A stretch of DNA of 64,000 nucleotides from a bacterium (lineage in GTDB: Bacteria; Patescibacteriota; CPR2; UBA1875; JAJYID01): assembly GCA_021790235.1 (NCBI GenBank), contig JAJYID010000001.1:107228-171227 (forward strand), in the 5' to 3' direction. The position numbers and the translations under genes are program-made. The first letter of the stretch is position 1. The number at the start of each line of letters is the position of its first letter. Below are positions 35,867 to 48,738 of the stretch, one piece after another. Under the pieces are notes generated by a model. That model searched no databases. It was not told the origin of the DNA and worked only from the letters and a program-made list of their open reading frames with translations.

Positions 35867-37642
35867 ATGGCAGTTGGTAACGATAATAAATTAGAAGATC
35901 TACTAGTCAAGCTGGGTTTGATTACACAAAAACAGCTTGATCTTGTTAAGGTTGAAAGCGCAGAATCAGGAAAACCGATTACAGAGATTCTAGGTAACAT
36001 GCCTGATATCTCAAAAGAAGCTTTGACAAAGGCGATAGCTGTGACTTTGGAGCTTCCTTATGTTGACCTTTCTGCAAAAAAAATTGATAAAAATATTCTT
36101 GATATCATCAATGGAGATCTAGCCGGAAAGTACAAACTTATTCCCTTTGGTAAGGTTGGCGATTTTCTAAATGTAGCTATGGTTGATCCTAACAATATCA
36201 TGGCCATCGAATATATTGAGAAAAAAACAGGTCTTAAGCTGAAGCCCTACCTTGCATCTCAAGAAAGCATTGAAAAAGCTTTAAAACAATATGACGATGA
36301 TTACTCAGTAGAAGTTCAGAATGTGATTGGAACCCTTGAAAAACCGCCAGAAATTAATCTTAAGGAAGATAAGGGAAAGCAAGGAGAAGCTGCCGTTATT
36401 ACCCAAGATGCTCCGATTACCAGAGCTTTAAACACTATCCTAGAATATGCAGCCAAATCCAGGGCTTCCGATGTTCATATTGAGCCAAGAGAGAAATTGA
36501 TAAAAGTTAGATATCGTATAGATGGTATTTTGTATAATACCATGACTCTGCCGAAACATATCCATCCTGCTCTCGTGTCCAGGATTAAGATACTCTCAAA
36601 CCTTAAAATCGATGAACATCGTATTCCTCAGGATGGGCGTTTTCAGCTAAATCAGGATGGACGAGAAATAGATCTTCGTATTTCTATTACCCCGATAGTT
36701 TATGGTGAAAAAGTGGTAATACGTCTTTTAGATAAATCTACAGGTATTATTACGCTTGATAATCTCGGGATAAAGGGACGAGCTTTTAGAATTATAGAGG
36801 AAGGGACTAAAAAACCTCATGGTATGATTTTGGCAACCGGTCCGACCGGGTCCGGTAAGTCCACCTCGCTGTATGCGATTTTGTCAGAGATTAATAAACC
36901 TAGTGTCAATATTATCACAGTTGAAGATCCAGTAGAATATAACATCGACGGTATTAACCAGATCCAGGTAAATAATGCCGTCGGACTGACTTTTTCTTCA
37001 GGTTTACGTTCAATCTTGCGTCAAGACCCCGATGTAATTATGGTTGGAGAGATACGCGACAAGGAAACAGCTGAACTAGCCGTTCAGTCGGCTCTGACGG
37101 GGCATACCGTCCTTTCTACCCTTCATACGAACTCTGCCGCCGGTGCTTTACCTCGTCTCTTAGAGATGGAAATCGAACCATTTTTAATCGCTTCCACCGT
37201 CAATACTGTTATAGCGCAGCGTCTGGTTCGTAAAATATGTGATCATTGCAAAGAAGAATATCAGGCGAGTCCAGCTTTAACTCAGGCAATTAAAAAGTCA
37301 CTAAAAGATGTCTTGCCGTCGAAGAAAGATCCCTCTTCAAAAACTAGAGAACTTGGTTTCGATAAATTACCGAATACTGAAAATGAGGTATTTACACTTT
37401 ATAAAGGTAAAGGTTGTGATCAGTGTAAAAATACAGGTTACTGGGGTAGGACAGGAGTTTATGAGATTTTTAGCATTAATGAAAAGATGGAGAATCTTAT
37501 CACGACAGAAGCTACTTCGAGCGATATTCAAGATCAGGCGATAAAAGATGGAATGATCACTATGCGTCAAGACGGTTTTTTAAAAGCTCTGGCAGGTATT
37601 ACCACATTGGAGGAGGTGGTAAGAACTACGACTGAAGACTAG
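35867..37642 (+). CDS. pilB: Type IV pilus assembly ATPase PilB (GspE family)
   Basis: T2SSE N-domain, Walker A GPTGSGKST, and a tetracysteine motif CDHC...CDQC. Confidence 0.92.
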   Translation: MAVGNDNKLEDLLVKLGLITQKQLDLVKVESAESGKPITEILGNMPDISKEALTKAIAVTLELPYVDLSAKKIDKNILDIINGDLAGKYKLIPFGKVGDFLNVAMVDPNNIMAIEYIEKKTGLKLKPYLASQESIEKALKQYDDDYSVEVQNVIGTLEKPPEINLKEDKGKQGEAAVITQDAPITRALNTILEYAAKSRASDVHIEPREKLIKVRYRIDGILYNTMTLPKHIHPALVSRIKILSNLKIDEHRIPQDGRFQLNQDGREIDLRISITPIVYGEKVVIRLLDKSTGIITLDNLGIKGRAFRIIEEGTKKPHGMILATGPTGSGKSTSLYAILSEINKPSVNIITVEDPVEYNIDGINQIQVNNAVGLTFSSGLRSILRQDPDVIMVGEIRDKETAELAVQSALTGHTVLSTLHTNSAAGALPRLLEMEIEPFLIASTVNTVIAQRLVRKICDHCKEEYQASPALTQAIKKSLKDVLPSKKDPSSKTRELGFDKLPNTENEVFTLYKGKGCDQCKNTGYWGRTGVYEIFSINEKMENLITTEATSSDIQDQAIKDGMITMRQDGFLKALAGITTLEEVVRTTTED

Positions 37643-37723
37643 AAATATTACTTTTTAATTATAAGTCTTTAAATTTTAAACTGATAGTATTAGAATAAGA
37701 ATTATAGAAGGAGGGCTGGGAAG

Positions 37724-38797
37724 ATGCCGGAAACAACTAAACTAAAAATTGAAAATTTTCTAGAAGAGGTTATAAAACGTGATGCCAGTGATCTTCATTT
37801 AACGGTTGGTGTACCTCCTATGCTCCGAGTAGATGGTTCGCTGCAACCTATTGAAGATGCCAAAGGGCTTACTGACAAAGATGTTAAAGAATTGACTTAT
37901 TCCATTTTAGATGATGTTCAAAAAGATATTTTAGAAAGGGATAAAGAAGTAGACTTTTCGTTCACATATGGGGATCTCGCCAGATTTAGGGCAAATGCTT
38001 ATCACCAAAAAGGTAACGTCGGTTTAGCACTTCGTCTCATTCCGGTTAATATCAGAAGTCTATCACAGCTAGGTATGCCTCAGATAGTTGAAAAATTTAC
38101 AGATTTTTCTCGCGGCTTGGTACTTGTAACCGGTCCGACCGGGTCCGGTAAATCCACTACCTTAGCAGCCATGATTGATAAAATCAACTCAGAACGCGCA
38201 TGCCATATCATTACAGTTGAGGATCCGATCGAATATACTCATTCGCATAAAAAATCTCTAGTTGAACAGCGAGAAGTGCATTATGATACTCGTTCATTTG
38301 CGGCTGCACTCCGCAGTGTTCTCCGTGAAGATCCGGATGTTGTTTTAATCGGTGAAATGAGAGATTTGGAGACTATTGCCGCGGCTATTACTATTGCCGA
38401 AACAGGTCATCTGGTCTTGGCTACTTTGCATACAAACAGCGCTGCCCAGTCAGTTGACAGGATTATTGACGTCTTTCCACCCCATCAGCAACAACAGATC
38501 AGAGTGCAGCTTTCTAATATTTTACAAAGTATAGTTTCTCAAAGATTAATTCCTGCTATCGGAGGTGGAAGATTGGCGGCTGCGGAGATTTTGGTAGTGA
38601 ATGCTGCGGTTAGAAATATCATTAGAGAACAGAAGACACATCAGATAGAAGCAGTGATTCAGACCGGTTCTTCAGAAGGTATGCAATCTATGGATAGAAC
38701 TCTGGCAAACTTGATTAAAACTGGACGTATTACTCTGGAAGAGGCAAAGGGCTATGCAATCGATATCAAAGAGCTTGAACGTCTCTTACATGGATAA
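37724..38797 (+). CDS. pilT: Type IV pilus retraction ATPase PilT
   Basis: ASDLHLTVG, GPTGSGKSTT, and HLVLATLHTNSA. Confidence 0.92.
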   Translation: MPETTKLKIENFLEEVIKRDASDLHLTVGVPPMLRVDGSLQPIEDAKGLTDKDVKELTYSILDDVQKDILERDKEVDFSFTYGDLARFRANAYHQKGNVGLALRLIPVNIRSLSQLGMPQIVEKFTDFSRGLVLVTGPTGSGKSTTLAAMIDKINSERACHIITVEDPIEYTHSHKKSLVEQREVHYDTRSFAAALRSVLREDPDVVLIGEMRDLETIAAAITIAETGHLVLATLHTNSAAQSVDRIIDVFPPHQQQQIRVQLSNILQSIVSQRLIPAIGGGRLAAAEILVVNAAVRNIIREQKTHQIEAVIQTGSSEGMQSMDRTLANLIKTGRITLEEAKGYAIDIKELERLLHG

Positions 38798-38842
38798 AAA
38801 TTAGCCGTAAAAACAATCCCTACAAACACTTAACGGAGTAAA

Positions 38843-40051
38843 ATGAAAGAATTTACATATAAAGCGAGAAATAAAGACGGGACGGCCACTCAAGGCATAG
38901 TAGAAGCGGAAACCGAGGTGGCAGCTTCAAATCTTCTGATTTCCAAAAACATTTTTCCGGTTGATATAAAAGAAGGTACCAAAACCTCCTTTGAAATACC
39001 TTTTTTAAAAAAGGTATCCAGAAAAGATAAAGTCTTCTTTCTGAGACAGTTGGCAACCATGACGGGTGCCGGTCTGCCTATAGCTCAAGCCCTTTCAACA
39101 CTATTGGCTCAAACCTCAAAGAAAAATGTTAAGAAAATGATTGAGCAAATGAGCCGTGACATTGAAGCCGGCGGTACGCTTTCTGCTGCTTTCGCCGCTT
39201 TTCCTGATGTGTTTAATAAAACCGATACCAATATGATAGCTTCGGGTGAAGCTAGTGGTAAAGTAGATGAGGTACTCTTGCACATGGCAAATCAGACAGA
39301 AAAGAGCTATCAAACTTTGAAAAAAATTAGAACCGTTTTTATTTACCCGGCCTTCCTAGCAGTCGTTGTGTCGGGTGTGGTGGGAATCTTAATAACATTT
39401 GTTTTGCCGCAAATGAAAAATCTCTACTCAGGGTTTGGAGCCAATCTGCCTTTGCCGACTAGAATTTTAATCGGGACTAGCGACTTTCTTGCCAAATATT
39501 TCATATTAGTGGTTATACTTGTCATTGCTATTTATATCTCACTTAGGATATATATTAAGACAAATGAAACAGGCAAGTATTTCTGGCACAGACTAAAGAC
39601 AAGTATACCGATAATCTCTAGCTTTATCCGTCTTTCTTATCTTTCTATTATTACGAGAACCTTGGCCAGCTTGGTGGCTTCAGGCGTACCTATTCTTGAT
39701 TCGCTGGATATAGTGTCAGAGGCTATGCAAAATGTCATATATCGCGATAGCTTAAAAACGGTTCGAGACAAGGTCAAACAAGGTAAGTCTTTATCTGCAG
39801 CTTTTAAGGAAGATGAGGTATTCCCAATATTGGTTTCCCAAATGATGGGAGTTGGTGAGCAAACGGGAGAGCTTGATAATATGCTTTCAAATATGGCAGA
39901 GTATTATGACAACGAGCTAGATAGCATGACCAAAAATCTGCAGTCTCTTCTGGAACCGGTTATGATAGTGATAATGGGAGGGATAGTCGGGACTATTATT
40001 ATTTGTATCTTGCTTCCGGTATATAGTCTTCAGAATTTTGTAGTCCACTAA
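38843..40051 (+). CDS. pilC: Type IV pilus platform protein PilC (GspF family)
   Basis: Two T2SSF repeats and three transmembrane regions. Confidence 0.9.
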   Translation: MKEFTYKARNKDGTATQGIVEAETEVAASNLLISKNIFPVDIKEGTKTSFEIPFLKKVSRKDKVFFLRQLATMTGAGLPIAQALSTLLAQTSKKNVKKMIEQMSRDIEAGGTLSAAFAAFPDVFNKTDTNMIASGEASGKVDEVLLHMANQTEKSYQTLKKIRTVFIYPAFLAVVVSGVVGILITFVLPQMKNLYSGFGANLPLPTRILIGTSDFLAKYFILVVILVIAIYISLRIYIKTNETGKYFWHRLKTSIPIISSFIRLSYLSIITRTLASLVASGVPILDSLDIVSEAMQNVIYRDSLKTVRDKVKQGKSLSAAFKEDEVFPILVSQMMGVGEQTGELDNMLSNMAEYYDNELDSMTKNLQSLLEPVMIVIMGGIVGTIIICILLPVYSLQNFVVH

Positions 40052-40150
40052 TTTGTTCATGCGATAGGCATAAATGAAATAATATAGTTGACACATCATA
40101 AGGACATTGGTTCAATATCAACATAAAAGAAAAAAGAAAGGAGGTGGAAT

Positions 40151-40591
40151 ATGAGAAATCTAAGAAAAAAGTTTACTCTGGGAGAAGCGAAGGGTTTTAC
40201 ACTTATTGAGTTAGTCGTAGTTATGGCTATTATCGCTGTTTTAGCGGTGCTGGTTATAGGTGCTATCACCATAGCCCGTCAAACTGCAATGGAGACTGCA
40301 GACAGATCAAACGTCAGAACATTGCAAACCTGTCTCGAAGCAGATTACACGAAATTTAAGGCTTATTGTGGTGCGACGGGTCAAACTGCATGTCCTACTT
40401 TGCCTACTACTGGTAGTGTAATGTTTACTGCTATGGCTGCTGATATAGGAAGTTGTAAACCAGCTACTGGGACTTCAGGTGATGGTGCCTCTGATGGAGT
40501 AACAGTGACTGCCTGGTCTAAGAATAGTTATACTATTCAAGCACTATCTCATGATAACTCAACTACTATAGATAGTCCTGTTTCTCCTTAG
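40151..40591 (+). CDS. Type IV pilin (paralog 1)
   Basis: Class III signal KG/FTLIELVVVMAIIAVLA. SD aaaggagg. Confidence 0.85.
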   Translation: MRNLRKKFTLGEAKGFTLIELVVVMAIIAVLAVLVIGAITIARQTAMETADRSNVRTLQTCLEADYTKFKAYCGATGQTACPTLPTTGSVMFTAMAADIGSCKPATGTSGDGASDGVTVTAWSKNSYTIQALSHDNSTTIDSPVSP

Positions 40592-40669
40592 ATAATTTGA
40601 TCGGGATATCTTTCATAACTAGCCATGGCGAGACGGCTCCTCATGGCTGTTATGGGAAATATTAAACAA

Positions 40670-41113
40670 ATGGAAGAGGGAGTGAAAAAGCTAAAAAAAA
40701 ATCAAGGTTTTACACTCATTGAGTTAGTCGTAGTTATGGCTATTATCGCTGTTTTAGCGGTGCTGGTTATAGGTGCTATCACGGTTGCTAGAAACACTGC
40801 TGCAGAAACTACAAATCGATCGAATGCTCGGACATTTCAAGCAGGTTTGGAAAAATATTTTTCTAATAATAAAAGTTATCCTGCCTACGTTGTTACCGGT
40901 GGTTTAGCCTCATTTGATACTTTGTACAACGATAATCTTAGAGATTTAGGCATTACGCATGCGGATTATCCCAGTGGCTGTGACACTACTGGTCAAGCAC
41001 ACGGTGGAGGCCAATATAGTTATAATTCTTCTACTGGTCAGTATACTCTTACGGTTTGGAACTATGATTGTACAAAAGTTTTATCCGGATCAAGCAATCA
41101 GTTTACCAACTAA
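40670..41113 (+). CDS. Type IV pilin (paralog 2)
   Basis: QG/FTLIELVVVMAIIAVLA. The ORF is open from 40625, but the start is chosen nearer the signal (MEEGVKKLKKNQG). Confidence 0.8.
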   Translation: MEEGVKKLKKNQGFTLIELVVVMAIIAVLAVLVIGAITVARNTAAETTNRSNARTFQAGLEKYFSNNKSYPAYVVTGGLASFDTLYNDNLRDLGITHADYPSGCDTTGQAHGGGQYSYNSSTGQYTLTVWNYDCTKVLSGSSNQFTN

Positions 41114-41127
41114 GATGATTAACAGTA

Positions 41128-41706
41128 ATGTTTTTGTATAAGAGAAAAAATATTTTCGGAAAATTAGAAGGTTTTACACTTATTGAGTTAGTCGTAGTTA
41201 TGGCTATTATTGCTCTTCTTGCCGCTTTAATCATAGGAGCCATCGCTATAACGCGCCAACAAGCCGATGTTACGAGGCTACGATCTGATGCTCATAATAT
41301 TCAGACAGCTTTAGAGGGATACTTTGCAAAGAACAGACATTTCCCTCCTGATTATCGAGTAGATGCCTACTCGCTTTATGCAGATACTTCTGCTTATTAT
41401 ACTGATGGCAAAACTTATGCAAACCAAGATGGAGCGCATCCTTTAAGTACTATGGGGGCATCATCTTGGCCCACTCCCCCGGCAAACAACGGCAGCAAGG
41501 GGCTGATATGTTACTCAGCCGGTCTCAACGCACAGGATTATTGGTTTTGGATCTTGACTCCGGGCGAGGTGCAAGCCGGTAAAGTGTGTATTGCCCCGAG
41601 TTGCACGAACTCTACTTGTGGATTTATAGCTGCAGATCCTGGCAGTAAGATTCATTGTCCGAATGGCACGACCTCGAGCGGTTGTTCATCTCAGTATTGG
41701 TATTAG
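41128..41706 (+). CDS. Type IV pilin (paralog 3, larger C-terminal domain with several Cys)
   Basis: EG/FTLIELVVVMAIIALLA. Confidence 0.8.
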   Translation: MFLYKRKNIFGKLEGFTLIELVVVMAIIALLAALIIGAIAITRQQADVTRLRSDAHNIQTALEGYFAKNRHFPPDYRVDAYSLYADTSAYYTDGKTYANQDGAHPLSTMGASSWPTPPANNGSKGLICYSAGLNAQDYWFWILTPGEVQAGKVCIAPSCTNSTCGFIAADPGSKIHCPNGTTSSGCSSQYWY

Positions 41707-41770
41707 AAAATTTGTTCTCTGTGTAAGACTGGAGGATAAGGCTGGGGACGGTTCTCTTTTTAAAGCAGAT

Positions 41771-41799
41771 TTGACGGAAACTTTCAAATTTTCTATAAT
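41771..41799 (+). promoter_or_regulatory. Sigma70-like promoter (TTGACG-17-TATAAT) of the transposase gene, 6 nt before the ATG (leaderless)
   Basis: ttgacg at 41771-41776, a 17-nt spacer, tataat at 41794-41799, and the ATG at 41806. Confidence 0.7.
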
Positions 41800-41805
41800 T
41801 TGTTT

Positions 41806-42489
41806 ATGCCCAGACAAGCTAGAATATTGCCACCGAACGGTTTTTATCATATCGTCTGCCGCGGAAACAACAAACAGAATATATTTCGGGATGATTCAGA
41901 TAAGGACAAATATCTTGAGTTGGCTTTAAGATACAAGGGAGAGCATCCCATGTCTCTATTCCATTATTGTTTAATGACTAATCATGTTCATTTGCTTCTT
42001 GAAACGAATGAACAAACTGATCTTTCAAACTTTATGAAAAGGCTTAATCTTGCCTATTTTCATCATTTTAAAAATAAATATGGTTATGTTGGCCATTTCT
42101 GGCAGGACAGATTCAAAAGCTTCTTAATCGAGCGGGATAACTATCTTTTGGTTTGTGGAAAGTATATCGAGCTGAACCCGGTAAGGGCTAAAATGGTGGC
42201 GAGACCTGAAGACTTTGAATACTCGAGTTATGGGTTTTATACTGATAACAAGAAGAGTGATATTTTAGAACACAACCCTCTGTTTTTTGAACTGAGCTCC
42301 AAGTCCAAGGATTGTTCTAGTCTGTACCGTGACTTTGTTGTGCCTCAAGAAGAGATAGAACAGAGGTTTAAGGGTCCCTTCTGGGGTAGTGAGAAATTTG
42401 TTACTAGAATGAGAAAGAGGCTTGACTATAAAAAGGCCGCTGTTCAAGCAGGTAGAAAGGTTAATTTTCGGAAAATCAAAGCGCAATAG
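41806..42489 (+). CDS. REP-associated tyrosine transposase-like / IS200-family Y1 (HUH) transposase
   Basis: FYHIVCRGNN, HUH motif TNHVHLLL, and the catalytic Tyr region YIELNPVRAKM. Confidence 0.8.
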   Translation: MPRQARILPPNGFYHIVCRGNNKQNIFRDDSDKDKYLELALRYKGEHPMSLFHYCLMTNHVHLLLETNEQTDLSNFMKRLNLAYFHHFKNKYGYVGHFWQDRFKSFLIERDNYLLVCGKYIELNPVRAKMVARPEDFEYSSYGFYTDNKKSDILEHNPLFFELSSKSKDCSSLYRDFVVPQEEIEQRFKGPFWGSEKFVTRMRKRLDYKKAAVQAGRKVNFRKIKAQ

Positions 42490-42555
42490 AGAACCGTCCC
42501 CTAAGTGGGGGATAATGTTCTTTTGTATTACTAGGTTGCTGAGTATAATATATTT

Positions 42556-43362
42556 ATGTTTATTTTCTTGATTTTGTTTTTTGTTTTTGGTCTGATCATT
42601 GGCAGTTTTTTGAATGTTCTGATATATAGATTAGAAAACAAAAAACGTAAAACTCTGTGGGGCAGGTCTTTTTGTCCTCATTGTGAGAAGCGAATTGAAT
42701 GGTATGATAATATTCCGGTTGTGTCCTTTCTGTTTTTGGGCGGCAAGTGCCGGCATTGCAAAAAGAAAATTTCCATTCAATACCCGCTGGTGGAGCTGAC
42801 AACAGGATTTTTGTTCGCACTGCTTTTTGTAATCCCGAACGGGGCAATGGCGGAGTTGGGGAATCCCTTTGCTTACATTAATTTAATCTTCTGGTTTTTC
42901 TTTGCCTCGTGTTTGATGGTTGTTTTTGTTTACGACTTAAAACATCAAATCATTCCGGACCAGGTAATTTATACTGCACTTATTACCGGCTTCCTCTATG
43001 TGTCAATGCAATTTGCTTTACTAGGAGACTTTAAATATTTAGCTGATCATCTGTCATCTGCATTGATTGCCGGAGGTTTTTTCTATATTTTAGCAGCCAT
43101 ATCAAACGGCAAATGGATGGGAGGAGGTGATATTAAACTGGTATCCTTCATGGGCTTAGTACTTGGATGGCAGGGTACTGTTATTTCTCTATATGTTGCT
43201 TTTGTTTTAGGTGCTATCATGGGCGTGATTTTGCTGATATCAAAGAAAAAAAAATTTGGTTCAAAGATCCCCTTTGGCCCTTTTCTAATCATAGGAAATT
43301 TTATAGGCCTTTTTTTTGGGGAGCAACTCATTAACTTTTATGTTAAAATGTTTTTAAGTTAA
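42556..43362 (+). CDS. pilD: Prepilin peptidase (A24 family) PilD
   Basis: Zinc-binding CPHC...CRHC, multiple transmembrane segments, and the catalytic region GGGDIKL. Confidence 0.9.
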   Translation: MFIFLILFFVFGLIIGSFLNVLIYRLENKKRKTLWGRSFCPHCEKRIEWYDNIPVVSFLFLGGKCRHCKKKISIQYPLVELTTGFLFALLFVIPNGAMAELGNPFAYINLIFWFFFASCLMVVFVYDLKHQIIPDQVIYTALITGFLYVSMQFALLGDFKYLADHLSSALIAGGFFYILAAISNGKWMGGGDIKLVSFMGLVLGWQGTVISLYVAFVLGAIMGVILLISKKKKFGSKIPFGPFLIIGNFIGLFFGEQLINFYVKMFLS

Positions 43363-43374
43363 CTGGATATTCTT

Positions 43375-44058
43375 ATGATGTGGAGGGTTAAAAATAATAA
43401 AGGATTTACACTGGTTGAGCTCATAGTGGTTATGTCAATAACCGGTATTTTGCTTGCGCTTATTTATGGCGGATATTCCAGTACCAGAAAAGGCCAGTAT
43501 GTTCAGTATATGGCGAATCTTACCCAGACTAATATCCGAAGCTCCTTTATAGATATTATCTCTACAAAAGTGGAAACAGCAGGTAACTGTAATGGTTTAT
43601 CGCCTGTGATAAAAGTTGTGGCAATAAAGTTAGGTTCATCTTCCACACCTATCACTGAGGTTCCTATTTGTAATGATAATAGTGGCGTACTGCAGGATCC
43701 GACTACGAATATTGAAACTATTGATCCGTCAGAGAGCTTAAATTTTCAGGAGAATTTAAGTATGGACTTTTGTACTCCTTATGCGACCAACTACTCTTGC
43801 ACTAATCCGACTAAAACAGGTTATCTTTATCTAATTTTTACAAGTCCATACGGAAAATATTACAGTTACTATAGTGGTTCAGATCAAATAACAGATTTAT
43901 GGACCTATCAAATTAGTAACTGGCAGCATAACGCAGATATGATTTATACGCCATCTAGTGACCCAAGTATAGGTTATATAACTCTTCATTTAACTGATGA
44001 TACCGGTAATACGTCAGAACTTAATATTACAGGTGTTGGTAATGTCGAAAAGCCATGA
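43375..44058 (+). CDS. Minor pilin / pseudopilin
   Basis: KG/FTLVELIVVMSITGILLA prepilin signal. Confidence 0.75.
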   Translation: MMWRVKNNKGFTLVELIVVMSITGILLALIYGGYSSTRKGQYVQYMANLTQTNIRSSFIDIISTKVETAGNCNGLSPVIKVVAIKLGSSSTPITEVPICNDNSGVLQDPTTNIETIDPSESLNFQENLSMDFCTPYATNYSCTNPTKTGYLYLIFTSPYGKYYSYYSGSDQITDLWTYQISNWQHNADMIYTPSSDPSIGYITLHLTDDTGNTSELNITGVGNVEKP

Positions 44059-44630
44059 GGATTTTAGATATGAGTTTCAAAATGATTAATAAAAAAGGAC
44101 AGAGTCTCGTTGAGGTCGTGGTAGCATGCGCTATTTTAGGTATTACTATGGCAGCGATTATGAGTATGGTAATCTCTTCAAAAAATCTTTTATATCAGTC
44201 CGAAGCACAGACTGAGGCTACAACTCTGGCTCAGGAAGGCATAGGTATAGTCCAGCATCAGCGTGATATCGGGTGCAGTTTTTCTAATATCACTACAAAT
44301 GGTGTGTTAAATGGTGCTAACGGTGGTTCAGACTTTGTGGTAAAAGGAGATCTGCTAAACGAGACCGGTGAGGATTTGGTTGCGGGTTCTATAACTTCTG
44401 CCACAAATATTGATGGTAATGGCAAAACCACTCAATTTGTCGGTTTTGAAAGGGGAATTGAAATCCAAGAATTAAGTGCCCTTGCGAGTAATCAAGTTGT
44501 GACAGGCTCGGGTTTTCAAGCGTCGGGTATCAATTATGACATCATAGATGATTATTACTACATTACTGTTACTGTGAATGGGCCGAATAATGCGAAATCG
44601 GAAATATCAACTATTATTTCAAAAAAGTAA
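44055..44630 (+). CDS. Minor pilin (PilV-like)
   Basis: KG/QSLVEVVVACAILGI prepilin-like signal. Confidence 0.6.
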   Translation: MRILDMSFKMINKKGQSLVEVVVACAILGITMAAIMSMVISSKNLLYQSEAQTEATTLAQEGIGIVQHQRDIGCSFSNITTNGVLNGANGGSDFVVKGDLLNETGEDLVAGSITSATNIDGNGKTTQFVGFERGIEIQELSALASNQVVTGSGFQASGINYDIIDDYYYITVTVNGPNNAKSEISTIISKK

Positions 44631-44633
44631 GAA

Positions 44634-45260
44634 ATGAAAAAGATTTTAAAAAATAAAAAAGGATTTACTTTGGTTGAACTTTTGGTAAGCATGGGGATTT
44701 TCGCTGTTGTTATAACAATGTGCGTCAGTTTCTTTATAGCAATGCAAAAGATGCAATCTGTCTATCGCGATCAAGCAAATTTGCAGCAGGAAGGAAGAAT
44801 TACTTCAAATATTTTTTCTATGCAGGTGAGTGATGCCGCAGTAGTTTATATTAATGATAAAAACAGTGATGGTAGTATTTGCAGTGATGCTGATGTGAAT
44901 AATAGGACTCAAAATAATGATTTTGAAGATTATATAGCGATAAAGAAAAATGTCAGTGACACAGAAGCGCTTGTCTTTGCCTGCCACGAGGACAATAGTA
45001 GTAATACACGATATTTAATGATGGGAACGCTCTCAGTTCCCGTCGGAACAGATCTCTCCCCGTTCACTATTAGTTCAGGTAATTTCGGGCAGCTTTCTTG
45101 GCTGTCTTCCAACCAAGTTACTATAGATGATTTTCAAGTGGCCAATAGTTCGACGACATATCCAAGAACTTTAAAATTCAATCTCAAAGTTAAAGGGTCT
45201 AGCGGGATTGCGCCGGAAATGCAGTTTCCCGGTTATCTGGTAATGAATAATGAACAATAA
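44634..45260 (+). CDS. Minor pilin (PilW-like)
   Basis: KG/FTLVELLVSMGIFAVV prepilin signal. Confidence 0.7.
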   Translation: MKKILKNKKGFTLVELLVSMGIFAVVITMCVSFFIAMQKMQSVYRDQANLQQEGRITSNIFSMQVSDAAVVYINDKNSDGSICSDADVNNRTQNNDFEDYIAIKKNVSDTEALVFACHEDNSSNTRYLMMGTLSVPVGTDLSPFTISSGNFGQLSWLSSNQVTIDDFQVANSSTTYPRTLKFNLKVKGSSGIAPEMQFPGYLVMNNEQ

Positions 45261-46206
45261 AAGGATCATAATGGAAAAGATACAAAACAAAAAAGGTAAT
45301 GCTCTCATCTGGACTGTGATGTTTATGGCGCTTTTTTTTCTCATAGCTAGCACAGTGGCAGTGATTACACTTGCAGACATCAGACAGGCTACTAATATAG
45401 ACAGCTCTACTGAGGCTTATTTAGTGGCTGAGGCAGGGATTGAGAGAGCTCGAAATTATGTATTAGCAGATCAATCCACAATCGGTTCCGGTTATATAGA
45501 TAGCAATACATATAAATTTGAGGTTGTGAAAGCAGTTGTGGGCAGCCAGTCTCCTTTTCTTACAGATCAAAATCGCATATGTGACAATACTACAGGTTCA
45601 ACAGATAAATATTGCTATTACAGTCAAGCCGTTGTAGGTAATGTTAAAAGAAAAATTATTGGTGAGCATAATAATATACCTCTAAGTCAAGGACAGTCCA
45701 CTAATTTTGATAGTAGCCTTATTCTCAATAATGATATAGGTATCCCAAGCATCGATTTTCAAAACTTAGGTTCGAGTTATCAAACATTTACTTATGTAAC
45801 AAATCTTGCAGATAATGATAGCGGTAATTCATATAATTTTGGTTTAGCTTCATCATCTACAAATGGGGTGGACATAGTTGTAGGTCCTGATCCGAACAAT
45901 ACTGGTAAACTGGAATTTTATTTAGCTGATATGCACTACAGTCATCTCGGCTCTAATATGATTAATAATATCACAGCCGGCAGTCTCCAAGTTACACTGG
46001 TTTACAGGAAAAGCGGTATAGCAACTCTTAAATTACAAAGTGATACTTCGTGTTTGGGTATCATCTCAGCGAGTGTGGCGCCAAACCTGAATCCGTACGA
46101 CGCCTTCTTTGTTCAGGGAACATATAATGCATCTTTTCCTTATGCTATATGGTTAAATGGAAAACAAGATATGCAGTTTAATACTGCTTTTTTGAGAGTA
46201 GAGTAA
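45250..46206 (+). CDS. PilX-like pilus tip/assembly protein
   Basis: KGNALIWTVMFMALFFLIASTVAVITLADIRQA is a PilX_N-type hydrophobic N-terminus. It is the last gene of the minor pilin set. Confidence 0.55.
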   Translation: MNNKRIIMEKIQNKKGNALIWTVMFMALFFLIASTVAVITLADIRQATNIDSSTEAYLVAEAGIERARNYVLADQSTIGSGYIDSNTYKFEVVKAVVGSQSPFLTDQNRICDNTTGSTDKYCYYSQAVVGNVKRKIIGEHNNIPLSQGQSTNFDSSLILNNDIGIPSIDFQNLGSSYQTFTYVTNLADNDSGNSYNFGLASSSTNGVDIVVGPDPNNTGKLEFYLADMHYSHLGSNMINNITAGSLQVTLVYRKSGIATLKLQSDTSCLGIISASVAPNLNPYDAFFVQGTYNASFPYAIWLNGKQDMQFNTAFLRVE

Positions 46207-46224
46207 ACTTAGGTCTTAACTAGT

Positions 46225-47169
46225 TCAGTTTTTCTTTCCGTGGAATTTTTTATGGATATCTTTTAGATGCTGGTTTGTAATATGGGTATAGATCTGGGTA
46301 GTTGTTATAGAAGAATGGCCGAGCATGGCCTGAACGCTGCGGATATCGGCACCGTTTATCAAAAGGTCGGTAGCAAAAGAATGCCTTAAAGAGTGAGGCG
46401 TCACTTCCTTTGTGATACCGGCTAGCCGAGCATATTTTGAAACAATCCTTTGAATACTTCTTGGAGTTAAGCGCATATATTCACCATCATCCAGGCCGTC
46501 TTTTGCGCCTGAAAAATGAATAAAAAGTGGTTTGGCATTATCGGTTCTTTTGGCAAGGTAGTTTTTTATTTTTCTTATGGCCGGATCCGAAAGAAAAACT
46601 ATCCTATCCTTGTCACCTTTACCGCGAACATTAAACTCTCCCCTTTCCAGGTTAATTTGTTCGCGGTTTAAGCCGGTGAGTTCACTTACTCTGAGCCCCG
46701 TAGAAAAAAGCGTTTCTAAAATCGCCGCATCCCTCAGAGTGGCTGCTTCTTTTTTTGAAGGGAATTTTTCTGGTGCCTTAAGGAGAGACTCGACCTCTTC
46801 AATACCTAAAAAATTTATTTGTTTTCGCTTCATTTCTCCGAGTTCTACTTTTTCTGCGGCCAAAGATTTGATGTCTCTTTTAGCCAGATATTTTAGGAAG
46901 GCACGAAGAGCAATAATATGATAAGTTTGGGTGATTTTAGCCAGATTGTCTCCGAGACCGGTAGTGAATCGGTTGAGATAGAGCCGATATTTTCTGACCA
47001 GATCACTTGTAATTTGTTCAGGTTTAAGTTCGCGGCTGCGCCCTTTTTCGGCAAAGTCAAGAAAACGTCCCAGATAGTGTTCGTAGTTTCTGATAGTCAG
47101 TTCTGAATGATTTTTTTCTATTTCTGAATACTCGAGGAAATCGCGGATAAGATCATTTACGCTAGCCAT
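46225..47169 (-). CDS. xerC: Tyrosine recombinase XerC/XerD family
   Basis: Catalytic motifs HSLRHSFAT and LGHSSITTTQIYTH. ATG 47169 is preferred over GTG 47187 because tacaat lies 6 nt upstream of it. Confidence 0.85.
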   Translation of the reverse strand: MASVNDLIRDFLEYSEIEKNHSELTIRNYEHYLGRFLDFAEKGRSRELKPEQITSDLVRKYRLYLNRFTTGLGDNLAKITQTYHIIALRAFLKYLAKRDIKSLAAEKVELGEMKRKQINFLGIEEVESLLKAPEKFPSKKEAATLRDAAILETLFSTGLRVSELTGLNREQINLERGEFNVRGKGDKDRIVFLSDPAIRKIKNYLAKRTDNAKPLFIHFSGAKDGLDDGEYMRLTPRSIQRIVSKYARLAGITKEVTPHSLRHSFATDLLINGADIRSVQAMLGHSSITTTQIYTHITNQHLKDIHKKFHGKKN

Positions 47170-47298
47170 ATTGGTATTGTACGACACAAAATTTTAAATT
47201 CAAAATGCAAACATTTTTTATTTCTGAGACCGGATTTTTTGTTAAGTATGTATTGCTAACATCTTGAACATTTTCAAAGATTCAAACATAATTTAATA

Positions 47299-48738
47299 AT
47301 GAAAGCTGTTTTTGCGGCGATAATCCTACTGTCTGTCGTACTTGGTATTTTGGTAGCTCCATATTTTAGCCTCTCGATGCTGAGTCTTTTTGCCCTTTTT
47401 AGTATTTTCTTTATACTAAGTTTGTCAGTTATCCCCAAAAGATGGCTTTGGCTCGCTATGATAGCGACCAGTTTTCTTTTCTTAGGTATATTTCGTTATA
47501 TCCAAGTGCAAAATGATATATATAACATTTCTTATCCCACAGGGCAGGATTTAGTAGTCAAGGGACAAGTGATGGAACCGCCGGAAGAAACTGATAAAGC
47601 GGTGAAAGCTGTACTCCAAGACGAGGCTAAGGGTGGGAAAATTCTACTGATCTTGAAACCTTTTACTAAAGTCAAATATGGAGAACGTTTATCAGTGAAC
47701 GGAAAAATTAGTGTGCCGGTTAAACAATATCAAAACTCTCTTTTAGTCAAAGGTATTGCATATGAGATGGCTTTTCCTCAGGTAAAACACATCGGTTCTG
47801 ACAGAATGAACATAACAATGAGGATCCAAAATAGCTTATATGCTTTAAGAGATAGTTTTGAAGACAGTATCAATAGGATTTTCCCGGAACCGGAAGCTTC
47901 ATTTTTAGCCGGACTGCTTTTGGGAGTTAAGAGGAACCTTCCTAGCTGGCTTATGCAAGACTTACAGGCGAGCGGCACTACCCACTTGATTGCTCTTTCG
48001 GGGTTTAATATTACTGTGATTATTGAGGCATTGAGGTTAATCTTCAGGCGCCGCAGCGCCAAGTTCGGTTTCTATATCCCCCTTCTTGCTATTTTTGCTT
48101 TTGTGGTTATGACCGGTTCATCGTCATCAGTAGTCAGGGCCGGGATTATGGGGTCAATGATGCTTCTCGCTTATCGGGTAGGGCGGCAATCTTCGGCTAC
48201 TATGGCAATAATTATTACAGCGGCCCTTATGGTTTTCGCTAATCCTTTTATCCTGCGTTACGATGCCGGTTTTCAGCTCTCATTTGTCGCATTTATCGGG
48301 ATTATCTACATTGCGCCTTTGGTAAGGGGAATTTTGCCGCTGAAACATCAGTTCATTAAAGAAATGCTGGCTATGACTTTGGGCGCGCAGATTATGGCCT
48401 ATCCTCTTATACTGCATTATTTTGGCACTTTATCGATAGTATCTTTTGCTGCAAATCTAGTAGTGCTGCCTTTTATACCTTTCGTTATGCTACTGGGTTT
48501 TTTAGCTGCACTTTTTGGCATGGTTTGGCAGAATTTAGGTTTTATCTTTTCCTTTACCGCCCTTTTTGCTTTAAAAGCAGTGATCAGCGTCATTCATTGC
48601 TTTGCAGTACTGCCTTATGCATCCTTTAGTGGCGTCGGATTTTCGGTTCTAAGTGTATTTATTTATTACATAATAGTTTTGGAACTGATTTTTATCTGCA
48701 AAAGATTGAAAACGAGGTGTCTTCATGCCGGATCGTAA
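47299..48738 (+). CDS. comEC: ComEC/Rec2 DNA internalisation channel (DUF4131 plus competence domain, no MBL domain)
   Basis: A polytopic membrane protein with an OB-like region (VVKGQVMEPPEE...) and the competence domain SGTTHLIALSGFNITV. Confidence 0.85.
   Translation: MKAVFAAIILLSVVLGILVAPYFSLSMLSLFALFSIFFILSLSVIPKRWLWLAMIATSFLFLGIFRYIQVQNDIYNISYPTGQDLVVKGQVMEPPEETDKAVKAVLQDEAKGGKILLILKPFTKVKYGERLSVNGKISVPVKQYQNSLLVKGIAYEMAFPQVKHIGSDRMNITMRIQNSLYALRDSFEDSINRIFPEPEASFLAGLLLGVKRNLPSWLMQDLQASGTTHLIALSGFNITVIIEALRLIFRRRSAKFGFYIPLLAIFAFVVMTGSSSSVVRAGIMGSMMLLAYRVGRQSSATMAIIITAALMVFANPFILRYDAGFQLSFVAFIGIIYIAPLVRGILPLKHQFIKEMLAMTLGAQIMAYPLILHYFGTLSIVSFAANLVVLPFIPFVMLLGFLAALFGMVWQNLGFIFSFTALFALKAVISVIHCFAVLPYASFSGVGFSVLSVFIYYIIVLELIFICKRLKTRCLHAGS

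What the first reader, a model, noticed from the sequence alone, without database searches (positions are those of the whole stretch)
41744..42501. RAYT/IS200-like Y1 transposase with perfect 14-bp inverted repeats, inserted in the middle of the type IV pilus locus
A 227-aa HUH/Y1 protein sits between the third pilin gene and pilD. Its motifs are HVH in TNHVHLLL and the catalytic Tyr context YIELNPVRAKM. It is flanked by ggggacggttctct (41744-41757) and the exact reverse complement (42488-42501, overlapping the stop codon), plus a cccc-taagt-gggg hairpin on the right. It has its own near-consensus promoter (TTGACG-17-TATAAT) ending 6 nt before the ATG. A single-gene unit with flanking inverted hairpin-type sequences is the arrangement described for REP-associated tyrosine transposases, not for classical IS200/IS605. 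The flanking repeat is not the same sequence as the dispersed GTCATYC family, so its cognate REPs, if any, must lie elsewhere. The insertion splits the pilin genes from pilD and the minor pilins and may affect operon polarity.
Basis: partly seen in the sequence, partly recalled or inferred. Interest (0 to 1): 0.55.

Follow-up and report, generated by a model that had tools for sequence, protein, structure and literature searches.

The report
TIR-flanked tyrosine transposase gene unit
A compact gene for a single-strand-DNA-cutting tyrosine (HUH/Y1) transposase, bracketed by a 14-base inverted repeat, sits between the pilin genes and pilD of a probable Patescibacteria genome; it is a new member of a known but barely studied class (TIRYT/TIRtron), and the same repeat core flanks its relatives in many bacterial phyla.

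Summary
ORF 41806-42489 encodes an intact 227-aa HUH/Y1 protein. It is flanked by a perfect 14-bp inverted repeat (41744-41757 / 42488-42501) and preceded by an 11/12 sigma-70-like promoter ending 6 nt before the ATG.

The protein fits the TIRYT class of Di Nocera 2013 better than a classical IS200 TnpA or a canonical REP-flanked RAYT. TIRYT corresponds to TnpAY1 subclass 2.1 and Bertels' RAYT group 1. It aligns full-length with published TIRYTs (E about 1e-40) and carries NHVH / FWQ / YIELNP / SS. Its closest solved fold is E. coli TnpA-REP.

The repeat is not chance. In 70 of 77 homologous loci from at least six phyla, the longest inverted repeat flanking the gene contains the same core, GGACG[G/T/C]TTCT. 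In some Omnitrophota and other genomes that core also forms dispersed intergenic hairpin doublets.

The pilus site is occupied in three related lineages, carries a remnant in one, and is empty in two. So this is an insertion, but an old or exchanged one. No other copy lies in the 64-kb window.

pilD keeps a -10 box of its own, so a polar effect looks unlikely.

Verdict: a new member of a known kind, of moderate interest.

The parts
41744..41760 (+). Left terminal inverted repeat (TIR-L). The perfect core GGGGACGGTTCTCT is 41744-41757; it extends to 41760 with one mismatch.
   Evidence: The same core flanks 70 of 77 homologous genes.
41771..41799 (+). Sigma-70-like promoter TTGACG-17-TATAAT (11/12). 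The -10 box ends 6 nt before the ATG, which implies a leaderless mRNA.
   Evidence: Of 80 homologous loci, 34 score 9/12 or better in this position, and in 29 of those the -10 box ends exactly 6 nt before the ATG; control positions give 1.4%.
41806..42489 (+). TIRYT-type HUH/Y1 tyrosine transposase gene, 227 aa. H60/H62 lie at 41983-41991, Y120 at 42163-42165, and the SS motif is residues 140-141.
42485..42501 (-). Right terminal inverted repeat (TIR-R), the reverse complement of TIR-L. It overlaps the TAG stop codon at 42487-42489.
   Evidence: In most homologues the outer end of TIR-R lies 10-14 nt past the stop codon, and the TIR often supplies the stop.
42507..42525 (+). Degenerate second copy of the TIR (GGGGGAtaatGTTCTT). 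It pairs with TIR-R to give a weak hairpin spanning 42484-42525 that looks like a terminator; it is probably a decayed hairpin doublet.
   Evidence: The DNA fold gives -6.4 kcal/mol, z = -2.0. The terminator scan flags 42496-42513. Intact doublets flank the gene in L059, L070 and L073.
42544..42549 (+). TATAAT box 6 nt upstream of the pilD ATG (42556). It lies outside the element and would give pilD its own start signal.
   Evidence: Read directly from the sequence. The same geometry is seen upstream of pilD in L088 (empty site), L005 and L118.

Best explanation
The region 41744-42501 is a TIRtron: a one-gene unit that encodes a TIRYT-type HUH/Y1 tyrosine transposase and is bounded by terminal inverted repeats. 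TIRYT corresponds to TnpAY1 subclass 2.1 and to group 1 RAYTs.

By homology with TnpA-REP and IS608/ISDra2 TnpA, the protein should nick and rejoin single-stranded DNA through a 5'-phosphotyrosine made by Y120, with H60/H62 holding the metal ion. Its recognition sequence is the conserved core GGGGACGGTTCT. That core appears once at each end in inverted orientation, so the two ends, or two close copies, can pair into a hairpin on single-stranded DNA.

The unit is very compact: left TIR, promoter, leaderless ORF, and a right TIR that overlaps the stop codon. Protein bound at the left TIR, about 13 nt from the -35 box, would probably also repress its own promoter.

The unit can move as a whole, and in some phyla its ends spread as short hairpin doublets. 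In this lineage it is a long-standing single resident between the last pilin gene and pilD.

What is shown here is the anatomy, the family membership, the conservation of the ends, the presence/absence at the site, and duplicate copies elsewhere. The chemistry, single-strand hairpin recognition, autoregulation and leaderless translation are all inferred.
For: **Family membership**
- Pfam Y1_Tnp scores 66.6 bits.
- The A1 profile hits TnpA-REP 4ER8 at E = 2e-7 and ISDra2 TnpA at 9e-3.
- The AlphaFold2 model has pLDDT 83.9. Its best Foldseek match is 4ER8 (E = 3e-8, target TM 0.74), followed by ISDra2 and IS608 TnpA.
- BLASTP against the published TIRYTs gives full-length hits at 1e-39 to 1e-41, against 1e-4 to 2e-8 for canonical RAYTs.
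- The motifs NHVH, FWQ, YIELNP and SS match subclass 2.1 in Table 1 of PMC6006769.

**Ends**
- The same core flanks 70 of 77 homologous loci from Omnitrophota, Elusimicrobiota, Nitrospirota, deltaproteobacterial lineages, Planctomycetes and Patescibacteria.
- The consensus is AAA-GGGGACGGTTCT[A/C]-TTT.
- Distant plasmid relatives carry TIRs of 32 and 26 nt that begin GGGGACAG and GGGGTCAG, matching the published GGGGWSAS motif.

**Mobility**
- Two copies in one Nitrospirota genome are 98% identical over 760 nt, and the homology stops 4 nt beyond the right TIR.
- L003 and L004 carry the same gene but diverge exactly at the outer edge of the left TIR.
- The pilus site is empty in L088/L089 and L091. 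It is occupied in L005, L006/L118 and the window, and carries a remnant in L090.
- Dispersed intergenic hairpin doublets of the core occur in L072, L071 and other loci.

**Promoter**
- The promoter and leaderless geometry are conserved.
Against: - No biochemical data exist for any TIRYT, so the mechanism rests on homology at 15-20% identity to solved enzymes.
- The TIR fits only 7 of 8 positions of the published GGGGWSAS motif (GGGGACGG).
- The helix-turn-helix domains reported in the C-terminus of subclass 2.1 were not detected by Pfam in this tail.
- Each TIR is not self-complementary. Hairpin recognition would therefore need the two ends, 724 nt apart, to pair, or the weak degenerate doublet at the right end to do the job.
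- No second copy and no solo TIR was found in the 64-kb window, so activity in this genome is undemonstrated.
- The closest empty site, L088, shows no recognisable target or footprint sequence.
Confidence: 0.8

Rival explanations
1. It is a canonical REPtron: a domesticated single-copy RAYT that maintains a population of REP/REPIN hairpins elsewhere in this same genome. On this view the two flanking repeats are half-REPINs.
For: - The NCBIfam REP-associated tyrosine transposase model is the best hit, at 75 bits.
- The right end looks like a decayed hairpin doublet.
- In other phyla the same core forms REPIN-like doublets in most intergenic gaps near the gene, and intact doublets flank the gene in L059, L070 and L073.
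Against: - The score is below the equivalog cut-off of 80.
- There is no GTAG-tagged palindrome.
- No additional copy lies in the 64-kb window.
- None of the roughly 20 Patescibacteria loci shows a dispersed doublet within about 4 kb.
- The protein is far closer to TIRYTs than to canonical RAYTs.
Confidence: 0.1
2. It is an ordinary autonomous IS200/IS605-family insertion sequence that encodes only TnpA.
For: - Pfam Y1_Tnp is named 'Transposase IS200 like'.
- The unit is compact, with the ORF ending inside the right end.
- Near-identical duplicates occur in one Nitrospirota genome.
Against: - NF033573 scores 21 bits against a cut-off of 55.
- The Tyr motif is YIELNP (class 2), not Y---Q (class 1).
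- The ends are inverted repeats rather than subterminal hairpins in direct orientation.
- There is no tnpB gene.
- The element is single-copy in the window.
Confidence: 0.03
3. It is a host-domesticated enzyme that processes single-stranded DNA and is functionally tied to the DNA-uptake locus (type IV pilus plus ComEC). On this view the repeats act mainly as operator and terminator signals, not as transposon ends.
For: - The gene sits at the same position in three related lineages, and its catalytic residues are intact.
- The left TIR lies close upstream of the -35 box, and the right TIR with its partner looks like a terminator.
- ComEC and the pilus genes lie in the same locus.
- A Gottesmanbacteria homologue lies next to pilB.
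Against: - Most family members sit in unrelated contexts in many phyla.
- Relatives with the site empty have the same pilus genes.
- The Y1 tree is not congruent with pilC: L118 and L005 are 84% identical in Y1 but 67% in pilC.
- Duplicates and doublets elsewhere mark the repeats as mobile ends.
Confidence: 0.05
4. The inverted repeat is a chance match around an unrelated gene.
For: None beyond the small size of the repeat (14 nt).
Against: Only 1 of 500 shuffles reaches 14 nt, and the same core is present at 70 of 77 homologous loci.
Confidence: 0.01

Closest known systems
TIRYT / TIRtron (Di Nocera et al. 2013, PMC3733652)
   Same: - It is a single tyrosine-transposase gene flanked by non-palindromic terminal inverted repeats that start with GGGG[A/T][C/G].
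- It aligns full-length with published TIRYTs at E about 1e-40 and 32-38% identity, including the C-terminal ...G..F...GR(P)K tail.
- In some genomes the TIRs form moderately abundant families arranged as dimers, as that paper reports.
   Different: - The TIR core is GGGGACGG-TTCT, which fits 7 of 8 positions of GGGGWSAS.
- The core is almost invariant across phyla in this sub-family.
- The host is a probable Patescibacteria genome, a group not sampled in that paper.
- The leaderless promoter geometry was not described there.
TnpAY1 subclass 2.1 (Quentin et al. 2018, PMC6006769) = RAYT group 1 (Bertels et al. 2017, PMC5581495)
   Same: - The motifs are NHVH, W[EQ], YIELNP and an SS tail motif.
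- The length of 227 aa is close to the subclass median of 238.
- Copy number is low and the taxonomic spread is wide and patchy.
- Plasmid copies are rare: 32 of 72,556 plasmid records hold a relative.
   Different: - Quentin et al. report C-terminal Bac_DnaA_C, HTH_23 or HTH_28 similarity and found no REP-like sequences for 2.1.
- Here no HTH domain is detected by Pfam.
- REPIN-like doublets of the TIR core are evident in several phyla.
E. coli TnpA-REP (YafM, PDB 4ER8) and REPtrons / REPINs
   Same: - It is the best structural and profile match.
- Both carry the Y---NP tyrosine motif.
- Both genes are bracketed by inverted copies of their cognate sequence.
- The doublets resemble REPINs.
   Different: - Sequence identity is only about 17-20%.
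- The flanks are not GTAG-tagged palindromes.
- An extra C-terminal region of about 85 aa is present.
- The NCBIfam equivalog cut-off is not reached.
IS200/IS605 TnpA (IS608, ISDra2)
   Same: Both share the HUH/Y1 fold and, presumably, single-strand DNA chemistry.
   Different: - The tyrosine motif is different.
- There are no subterminal hairpins.
- There is no tnpB gene.
- The IS200 model scores far below its cut-off.

Membership tests
TIRYT / TIRtron | HUH motif and catalytic Tyr of the Y1 superfamily | tested here: met
   H60-V61-H62 and Y120 are present, and both are invariant columns in A1. Pfam Y1_Tnp matches and the fold matches 4ER8.
TIRYT / TIRtron | Sequence similarity to the published TIRYTs rather than to RAYTs | tested here: met
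   BLASTP gives E = 9e-41 to 6e-39 over the full length to tkm1558, pca3049, sml4509, pfs148A and gbm2474. Against the RAYTs eco b228, sml2816 and ppf5083 it gives 1e-4 to 2e-8.
TIRYT / TIRtron | Gene flanked by terminal inverted repeats that are not themselves REP hairpins | tested here: met
   The TIR is 14 nt perfect, or 17 nt with one mismatch. The left arm region does not fold (dG -0.7 kcal/mol, z = +1). The feature is conserved in 70 of 77 loci.
TIRYT / TIRtron | TIR contains the GGGGWSAS motif seen in the majority of published TIRs | tested here: inconclusive
   GGGGACGG fits 7 of 8 positions, with G instead of A at position 7. Two plasmid relatives fit fully, with GGGGACAG and GGGGTCAG.
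TnpAY1 subclass 2.1 | Key motifs NHVH / W[EQ] / YIELNP / SS, with length around 238 aa | tested here: met
   The protein has TNHVHLL, HFWQDRF, YIELNPV and EYSSYG and is 227 aa long.
TnpAY1 subclass 2.1 | C-terminal HTH-type domain (Bac_DnaA_C, HTH_23 or HTH_28) | tested here: not met
   Pfam finds nothing in residues 124-227 at E up to 1. The AlphaFold2 model does show four short helices there. Quentin et al. describe subgroup 2.1.2 as heterogeneous in this region.
Canonical RAYT / REPtron | Passes the NCBIfam NF047646 equivalog cut-off | tested here: not met
   The score is 75 bits against a cut-off of 80.
Canonical RAYT / REPtron | Flanked by GTAG-tagged REP palindromes | tested here: not met
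   The flanks are GGGGACGGTTCTCT and its complement. No GTAG hairpin is present.
Canonical RAYT / REPtron | Dispersed REP/REPIN population of the cognate sequence in the same genome | tested here: inconclusive
   There is none in the 64-kb window, and the rest of the genome was not available. Such a population is present near homologues in Omnitrophota and other phyla.
IS200/IS605 TnpA | Passes NF033573; has the Y---Q tyrosine motif, subterminal hairpins and multiple copies | tested here: not met
   The score is 21.4 bits against a cut-off of 55. The motif is YIELNP. No second copy lies in the window.

The most novel reading that the evidence does not exclude
The GGGGACGGTTCT sub-family may be an undescribed bridge between TIRtrons and REPtrons.

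- One almost invariant 12-nt core would be recognised by proteins only 41-52% identical across at least six phyla.
- The core would be used either as single terminal repeats or as dispersed hairpin doublets that look like bidirectional terminators.
- The nick site would lie inside the repeat, as suggested by the recurrent 'stutter' duplications of flank plus GGGGAC(GG).
- The copy in this pilus and DNA-uptake locus would be a long-retained, possibly domesticated, resident.
Probability: 0.25. Interest if true: 0.6.

Novelty: new member of a known kind. Interest (0 to 1): 0.4.

Why it matters
TIRYTs (subclass 2.1, group 1 RAYTs) are the second largest branch of the Y1 HUH superfamily. Even so, no member has been studied biochemically and no substrate has been defined for the class.

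This sub-family offers a short substrate that is almost invariant across phyla, GGGGACGGTTCT. It also offers a very compact architecture: TIR, promoter, leaderless ORF, TIR. Together these make a binding and cleavage assay easy to design.

The sub-family also shows that at least part of subclass 2.1 does have REPIN-like dispersed copies, which were reported as absent.

For this genome the practical message is modest. The pilus operon carries an old, single-copy mobile or domesticated gene that probably does not cut pilD off from its own start signal.

Tried and rejected
- **Rfam:** a scan of 41500-42800 at E up to 10 returned only noise.
- **Literature:** a full-text search for the TIR sequence found only unrelated primer matches. 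No work on TIRYTs later than 2018 was found, and nothing on Patescibacteria Y1 genes in pilus loci.
- **Phage and defence links:** a scan of viral contigs with the family alignment found no relatives. PADLOC and PHROGs gave no hits.
- **Other copies in the window:** a search for the TIR found none beyond chance. No second Y1 gene is present.
- **A neighbouring hairpin:** GCCAAGGTTCNGAACCTTGGC, seen next to a second Y1 gene in L118 and in L090, is absent from the window.
- **C-terminal HTH domain:** Pfam did not detect one.
- **Excision footprints:** the idea that GGGGAC..GTCCCC palindromes mark excision sites or preferred targets rests on a single instance in 844 kb (L003). The empty site in L088 has no such sequence. 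The idea was dropped as a general explanation.
- **Strict vertical co-divergence with the pilus locus:** rejected, because Y1 of L118 and L005 is 84% identical while their pilC is 67%.
- **Organism name:** a cluster look-up returned no names.

Full report
**1. Observation**

- GGGGACGGTTCTCT lies at 41744-41757.
- Its exact reverse complement lies at 42488-42501 and overlaps the TAG stop codon at 42487-42489. The repeat finder extends the pair to 17 nt with one mismatch.
- The ORF runs from 41806 to 42489 and encodes 227 aa. The family alignment supports the ATG, giving the start MPR....
- HVH is H60-V61-H62, and the Tyr of YIELNP is Y120.
- TTGACG-17-TATAAT (41771-41799) is an 11/12 sigma-70 match ending 6 nt before the ATG. 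It is the best promoter match in the 2 kb scanned.
- The CCCC-TAAGT-GGGG hairpin is flagged as terminator-like.

The repeat is not a chance match. A perfect inverted repeat of 14 nt or more appeared in only 1 of 500 shuffles of the 1.7-kb region. The 14-mer has no other copy with two or fewer mismatches in the 64-kb window.

**2. The protein**

- Pfam gives Y1_Tnp at 66.6 bits.
- NCBIfam gives 'REP-associated tyrosine transposase' at 75 bits, just under its cut-off of 80. It gives IS200/IS605 transposase at 21 bits against a cut-off of 55.
- A profile of 32 family members hits E. coli TnpA-REP (4ER8) at E = 2e-7 and ISDra2 TnpA at 9e-3.
- The AlphaFold2 model has a mean pLDDT of 83.9. It is closest to 4ER8 (E = 3e-8, target TM 0.74), followed by ISDra2, IS608 and IS200 TnpA.
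- PADLOC and PHROGs give nothing.
- The family is very large: 7,921 of 8,000 scored candidates had E of 1e-3 or better.

**3. Classification from the literature, then tested**

Quentin et al. 2018 (PMC6006769) divide Y1 proteins into 12 subclasses. Subclass 2.1 corresponds to Bertels' RAYT group 1. It has a median length of 238 aa and the motifs NHVH / W[EQ] / YIELNP plus an SS tail motif, and no REP was found for it. They equate it with the TIRYTs of Di Nocera et al. 2013 (PMC3733652). Those are tyrosine-transposase genes flanked by terminal inverted repeats that share GGGGWSAS, an arrangement called a TIRtron.

The window protein has TNHVHLL, HFWQDRF, YIELNPV and EYSSYG. I rebuilt twelve sequences from Di Nocera's Additional file 5 and ran BLASTP against them.
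- TIRYTs match over the full length at E = 9e-41 to 6e-39 (32-38% identity).
- Canonical RAYTs match at only 1e-4 to 2e-8.

Two distant plasmid relatives (37% and 33% identity) are flanked by TIRs of 32 and 26 nt that begin AAAGGGGACAG and GGGGTCAG. This reproduces the published motif. The window TIR, GGGGACGG, fits 7 of 8 positions. The HTH-type C-terminal domain reported for subclass 2.1 was not detected by Pfam in residues 124-227.

**4. The repeats belong to the family**

The closest homologues (58-75% identity) all carry GGGGACGGTTCTC upstream and its complement at the stop codon. This holds even in unrelated contexts.

A scan of 185,579 species genomes confirmed 377 relatives, and the best 80 loci were kept. 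They come from Omnitrophota, Elusimicrobiota, Nitrospirota, deltaproteobacterial lineages such as Smithella, Planctomycetes, Aminicenantes and Patescibacteria, at 41-54% identity.

An unbiased search asked for the longest perfect inverted repeat between the 160 nt upstream and the 150 nt around and after the stop codon.
- It contained GGACG[G/T/C]TTCT in 70 of 77 loci.
- Lengths were 11-28 nt, against 5-10 nt in nearly all control regions, with one outlier of 16.
- The consensus is AAA-GGGGACGGTTCT[A/C]-TTT (that consensus was built from motif-anchored hits, so it describes the motif and is not a test of it).

The right TIR typically ends 10-14 nt past the stop codon and often supplies the stop. 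Of 80 loci, 34 have a promoter match of 9/12 or better. In 29 of those the -10 box ends exactly 6 nt before the ATG, against 1.4% at control positions. This implies leaderless mRNAs. Another 17 loci have a Shine-Dalgarno-like sequence instead.

**5. Dispersed copies**

In ten loci the same core also occurs as short hairpin doublets. Their form is aaaaGGGGACGGTTCTAT - loop of 10 to about 70 nt (mostly 10-36) - ATAGAACCGTCCCCtttt.
- They fold at -20 to -25 kcal/mol, with z about -8.
- In L072 (Omnitrophota) they occupy 6 of 7 intergenic gaps. In L071 they are also intergenic.
- In L059, L070 and L073 intact doublets flank the gene on both sides.
- None was seen in the Patescibacteria loci.

The window's right end, GAGAACCGTCCCC-taagt-GGGGGAtaatGTTCTT, reads as a decayed doublet (-6.4 kcal/mol, z = -2).

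**6. Mobility**

- Two copies in one Nitrospirota genome (L042 and L060) are 98% identical over 760 nt. The homology ends 4 nt beyond the right TIR, and L060 starts at a contig end.
- L003 and L004 encode the identical protein and share the right flank, but they diverge exactly at the outer edge of the left TIR.
- Paralogues within other genomes are only 51-70% identical.
- No relative was found on viral contigs.
- Only 32 of 72,556 plasmid records hold one.

**7. The pilus site**

The window locus reads pilM..pilB-pilT-pilC, three pilin genes, Y1, pilD, minor pilins, a xerC-like gene and ComEC.

| Locus | State of the site between the last pilin gene and pilD |
|---|---|
| L118/L006 | Occupied; Y1 is 74-75% identical to the window's |
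| L005 | Occupied; Y1 is 71-72% identical |
| L090 | Two solo left ends, no Y1 gene |
| L088/L089 | Empty; 93 nt between the pilin gene and pilD (pilD 68%, pilC 69% identical) |
| L091 | Empty |

The element's GC content (38.3%) matches the window's (39.9%).

The identity matrices are not congruent. For pilC, window-L118 is 76% and all pairs involving L005 are 67-68%. For Y1, L118-L005 is 84% and window-L118 is 74%. So the element is an old resident of this site that has also been exchanged or re-acquired among lineages. L118 carries two different versions of the region upstream of pilD, which shows that recombination occurs in this locus.

pilD has TATAAT at 42544-42549, 6 nt before its ATG. 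The same geometry is seen in the empty-site relative. A polar effect on pilD is therefore unlikely; this is inferred.

**8. Mechanism (inferred)**

By homology with TnpA-REP and IS608/ISDra2 TnpA, Y120 would form a 5'-phosphotyrosine on single-stranded DNA, with H60/H62 coordinating the metal ion. The conserved core would be the recognition sequence. Inverted copies can pair into a hairpin on single-stranded DNA, either as doublets or as the two ends of the unit. The left TIR lies about 13 nt from the -35 box here, and 3-4 nt from it in most relatives. Bound protein would therefore probably repress its own promoter.

Recurrent 'stutter' duplications hint that nicking occurs inside the TIR. In these, flank plus GGGGAC(GG) is repeated in tandem just outside the full left TIR. 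They occur in 10 of 75 loci, against a background of 3.4%, and are mirrored at some right ends. This remains unexplained.

**9. Verdict**

This is a real TIRtron encoding a TIRYT-type Y1 transposase: a new member of a known, little-studied kind.
- The flanks are terminal inverted repeats, not REP hairpins.
- The insertion is old and shared with related lineages.
- pilD keeps its own start signal.

The most interesting by-product is the near-invariant TIR core across phyla, together with its REPIN-like doublets.

Noticed in passing
L090 1748-1880 and 3338-3470: Two direct solo 'left ends' bracket an AbiEi/AbiEii toxin-antitoxin pair directly upstream of pilD. Each consists of the TIR, a promoter-like stretch and the hairpin CTGCCAAGGTTCCGAACCTTGGCAG. 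No Y1 gene is present.
   Followed up: partly
L003 2134-2229 and 2414-3562: A solo left end with its promoter and a truncated start codon is followed by the palindrome GGGGACtGTCCCC. It lies upstream of a Fic gene, and the complete TIRtron follows. The palindrome looks like joined TIR tips, but it is the only such case in 844 kb of loci.
   Followed up: partly
L118 10600-12130 and 16399-17200: A Fic gene on the minus strand sits between the TIRtron and pilD, with about 100 nt of the pilD 5' end duplicated on either side, each copy behind its own version of the upstream hairpin and promoter. A second, divergent Y1 gene (252 aa; NHLH, YIHLNP) lies next to xerC and is followed by the hairpin GCCAAGGTTCGGAACCTTGGC.
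   Followed up: partly
L017, L027, L042, L049, L050, L061, L072, L079, L081 (left ends); L003, L043, L049, L051, L005, L118 (right ends): The adjacent flank plus the outermost 4-8 nt of the TIR (GGGGAC or GGGGACGG) is reiterated in tandem 2-4 times just outside the full TIR. This occurs at 10 of 75 left ends, against a background of 3.4%. No mechanism has been established.
   Followed up: partly
window 42544-42558: pilD has TATAAT exactly 6 nt before its ATG, the same leaderless geometry as the Y1 gene. The geometry is conserved in relatives with and without the element.
   Followed up: partly
L072 192-6276; L071 2908-7279: Hairpin doublets of the TIR core fill most intergenic gaps near the Y1 gene in Omnitrophota. 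They are flanked by an A-run on one side and a T-run on the other, so they look like bidirectional intrinsic terminators.
   Followed up: partly
L079 4001-8586: In a Gottesmanbacteria genome a family member lies about 0.9 kb upstream of pilB-pilT-pilC. This is a second, independent Patescibacteria case of a Y1 gene next to pilus genes.
   Followed up: no
window 35867-48738: The surrounding locus combines type IV pilus genes (pilB, pilT, pilC, three pilins, pilD, minor pilins) with a xerC-like recombinase (46225-47187, minus strand) and ComEC (47299-48738). It therefore looks like a DNA-uptake locus.
   Followed up: no
It was not examined here. GTCATCC does occur in the promoter spacer of the L006/L118 copies, but not in the window copy.
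   Followed up: no
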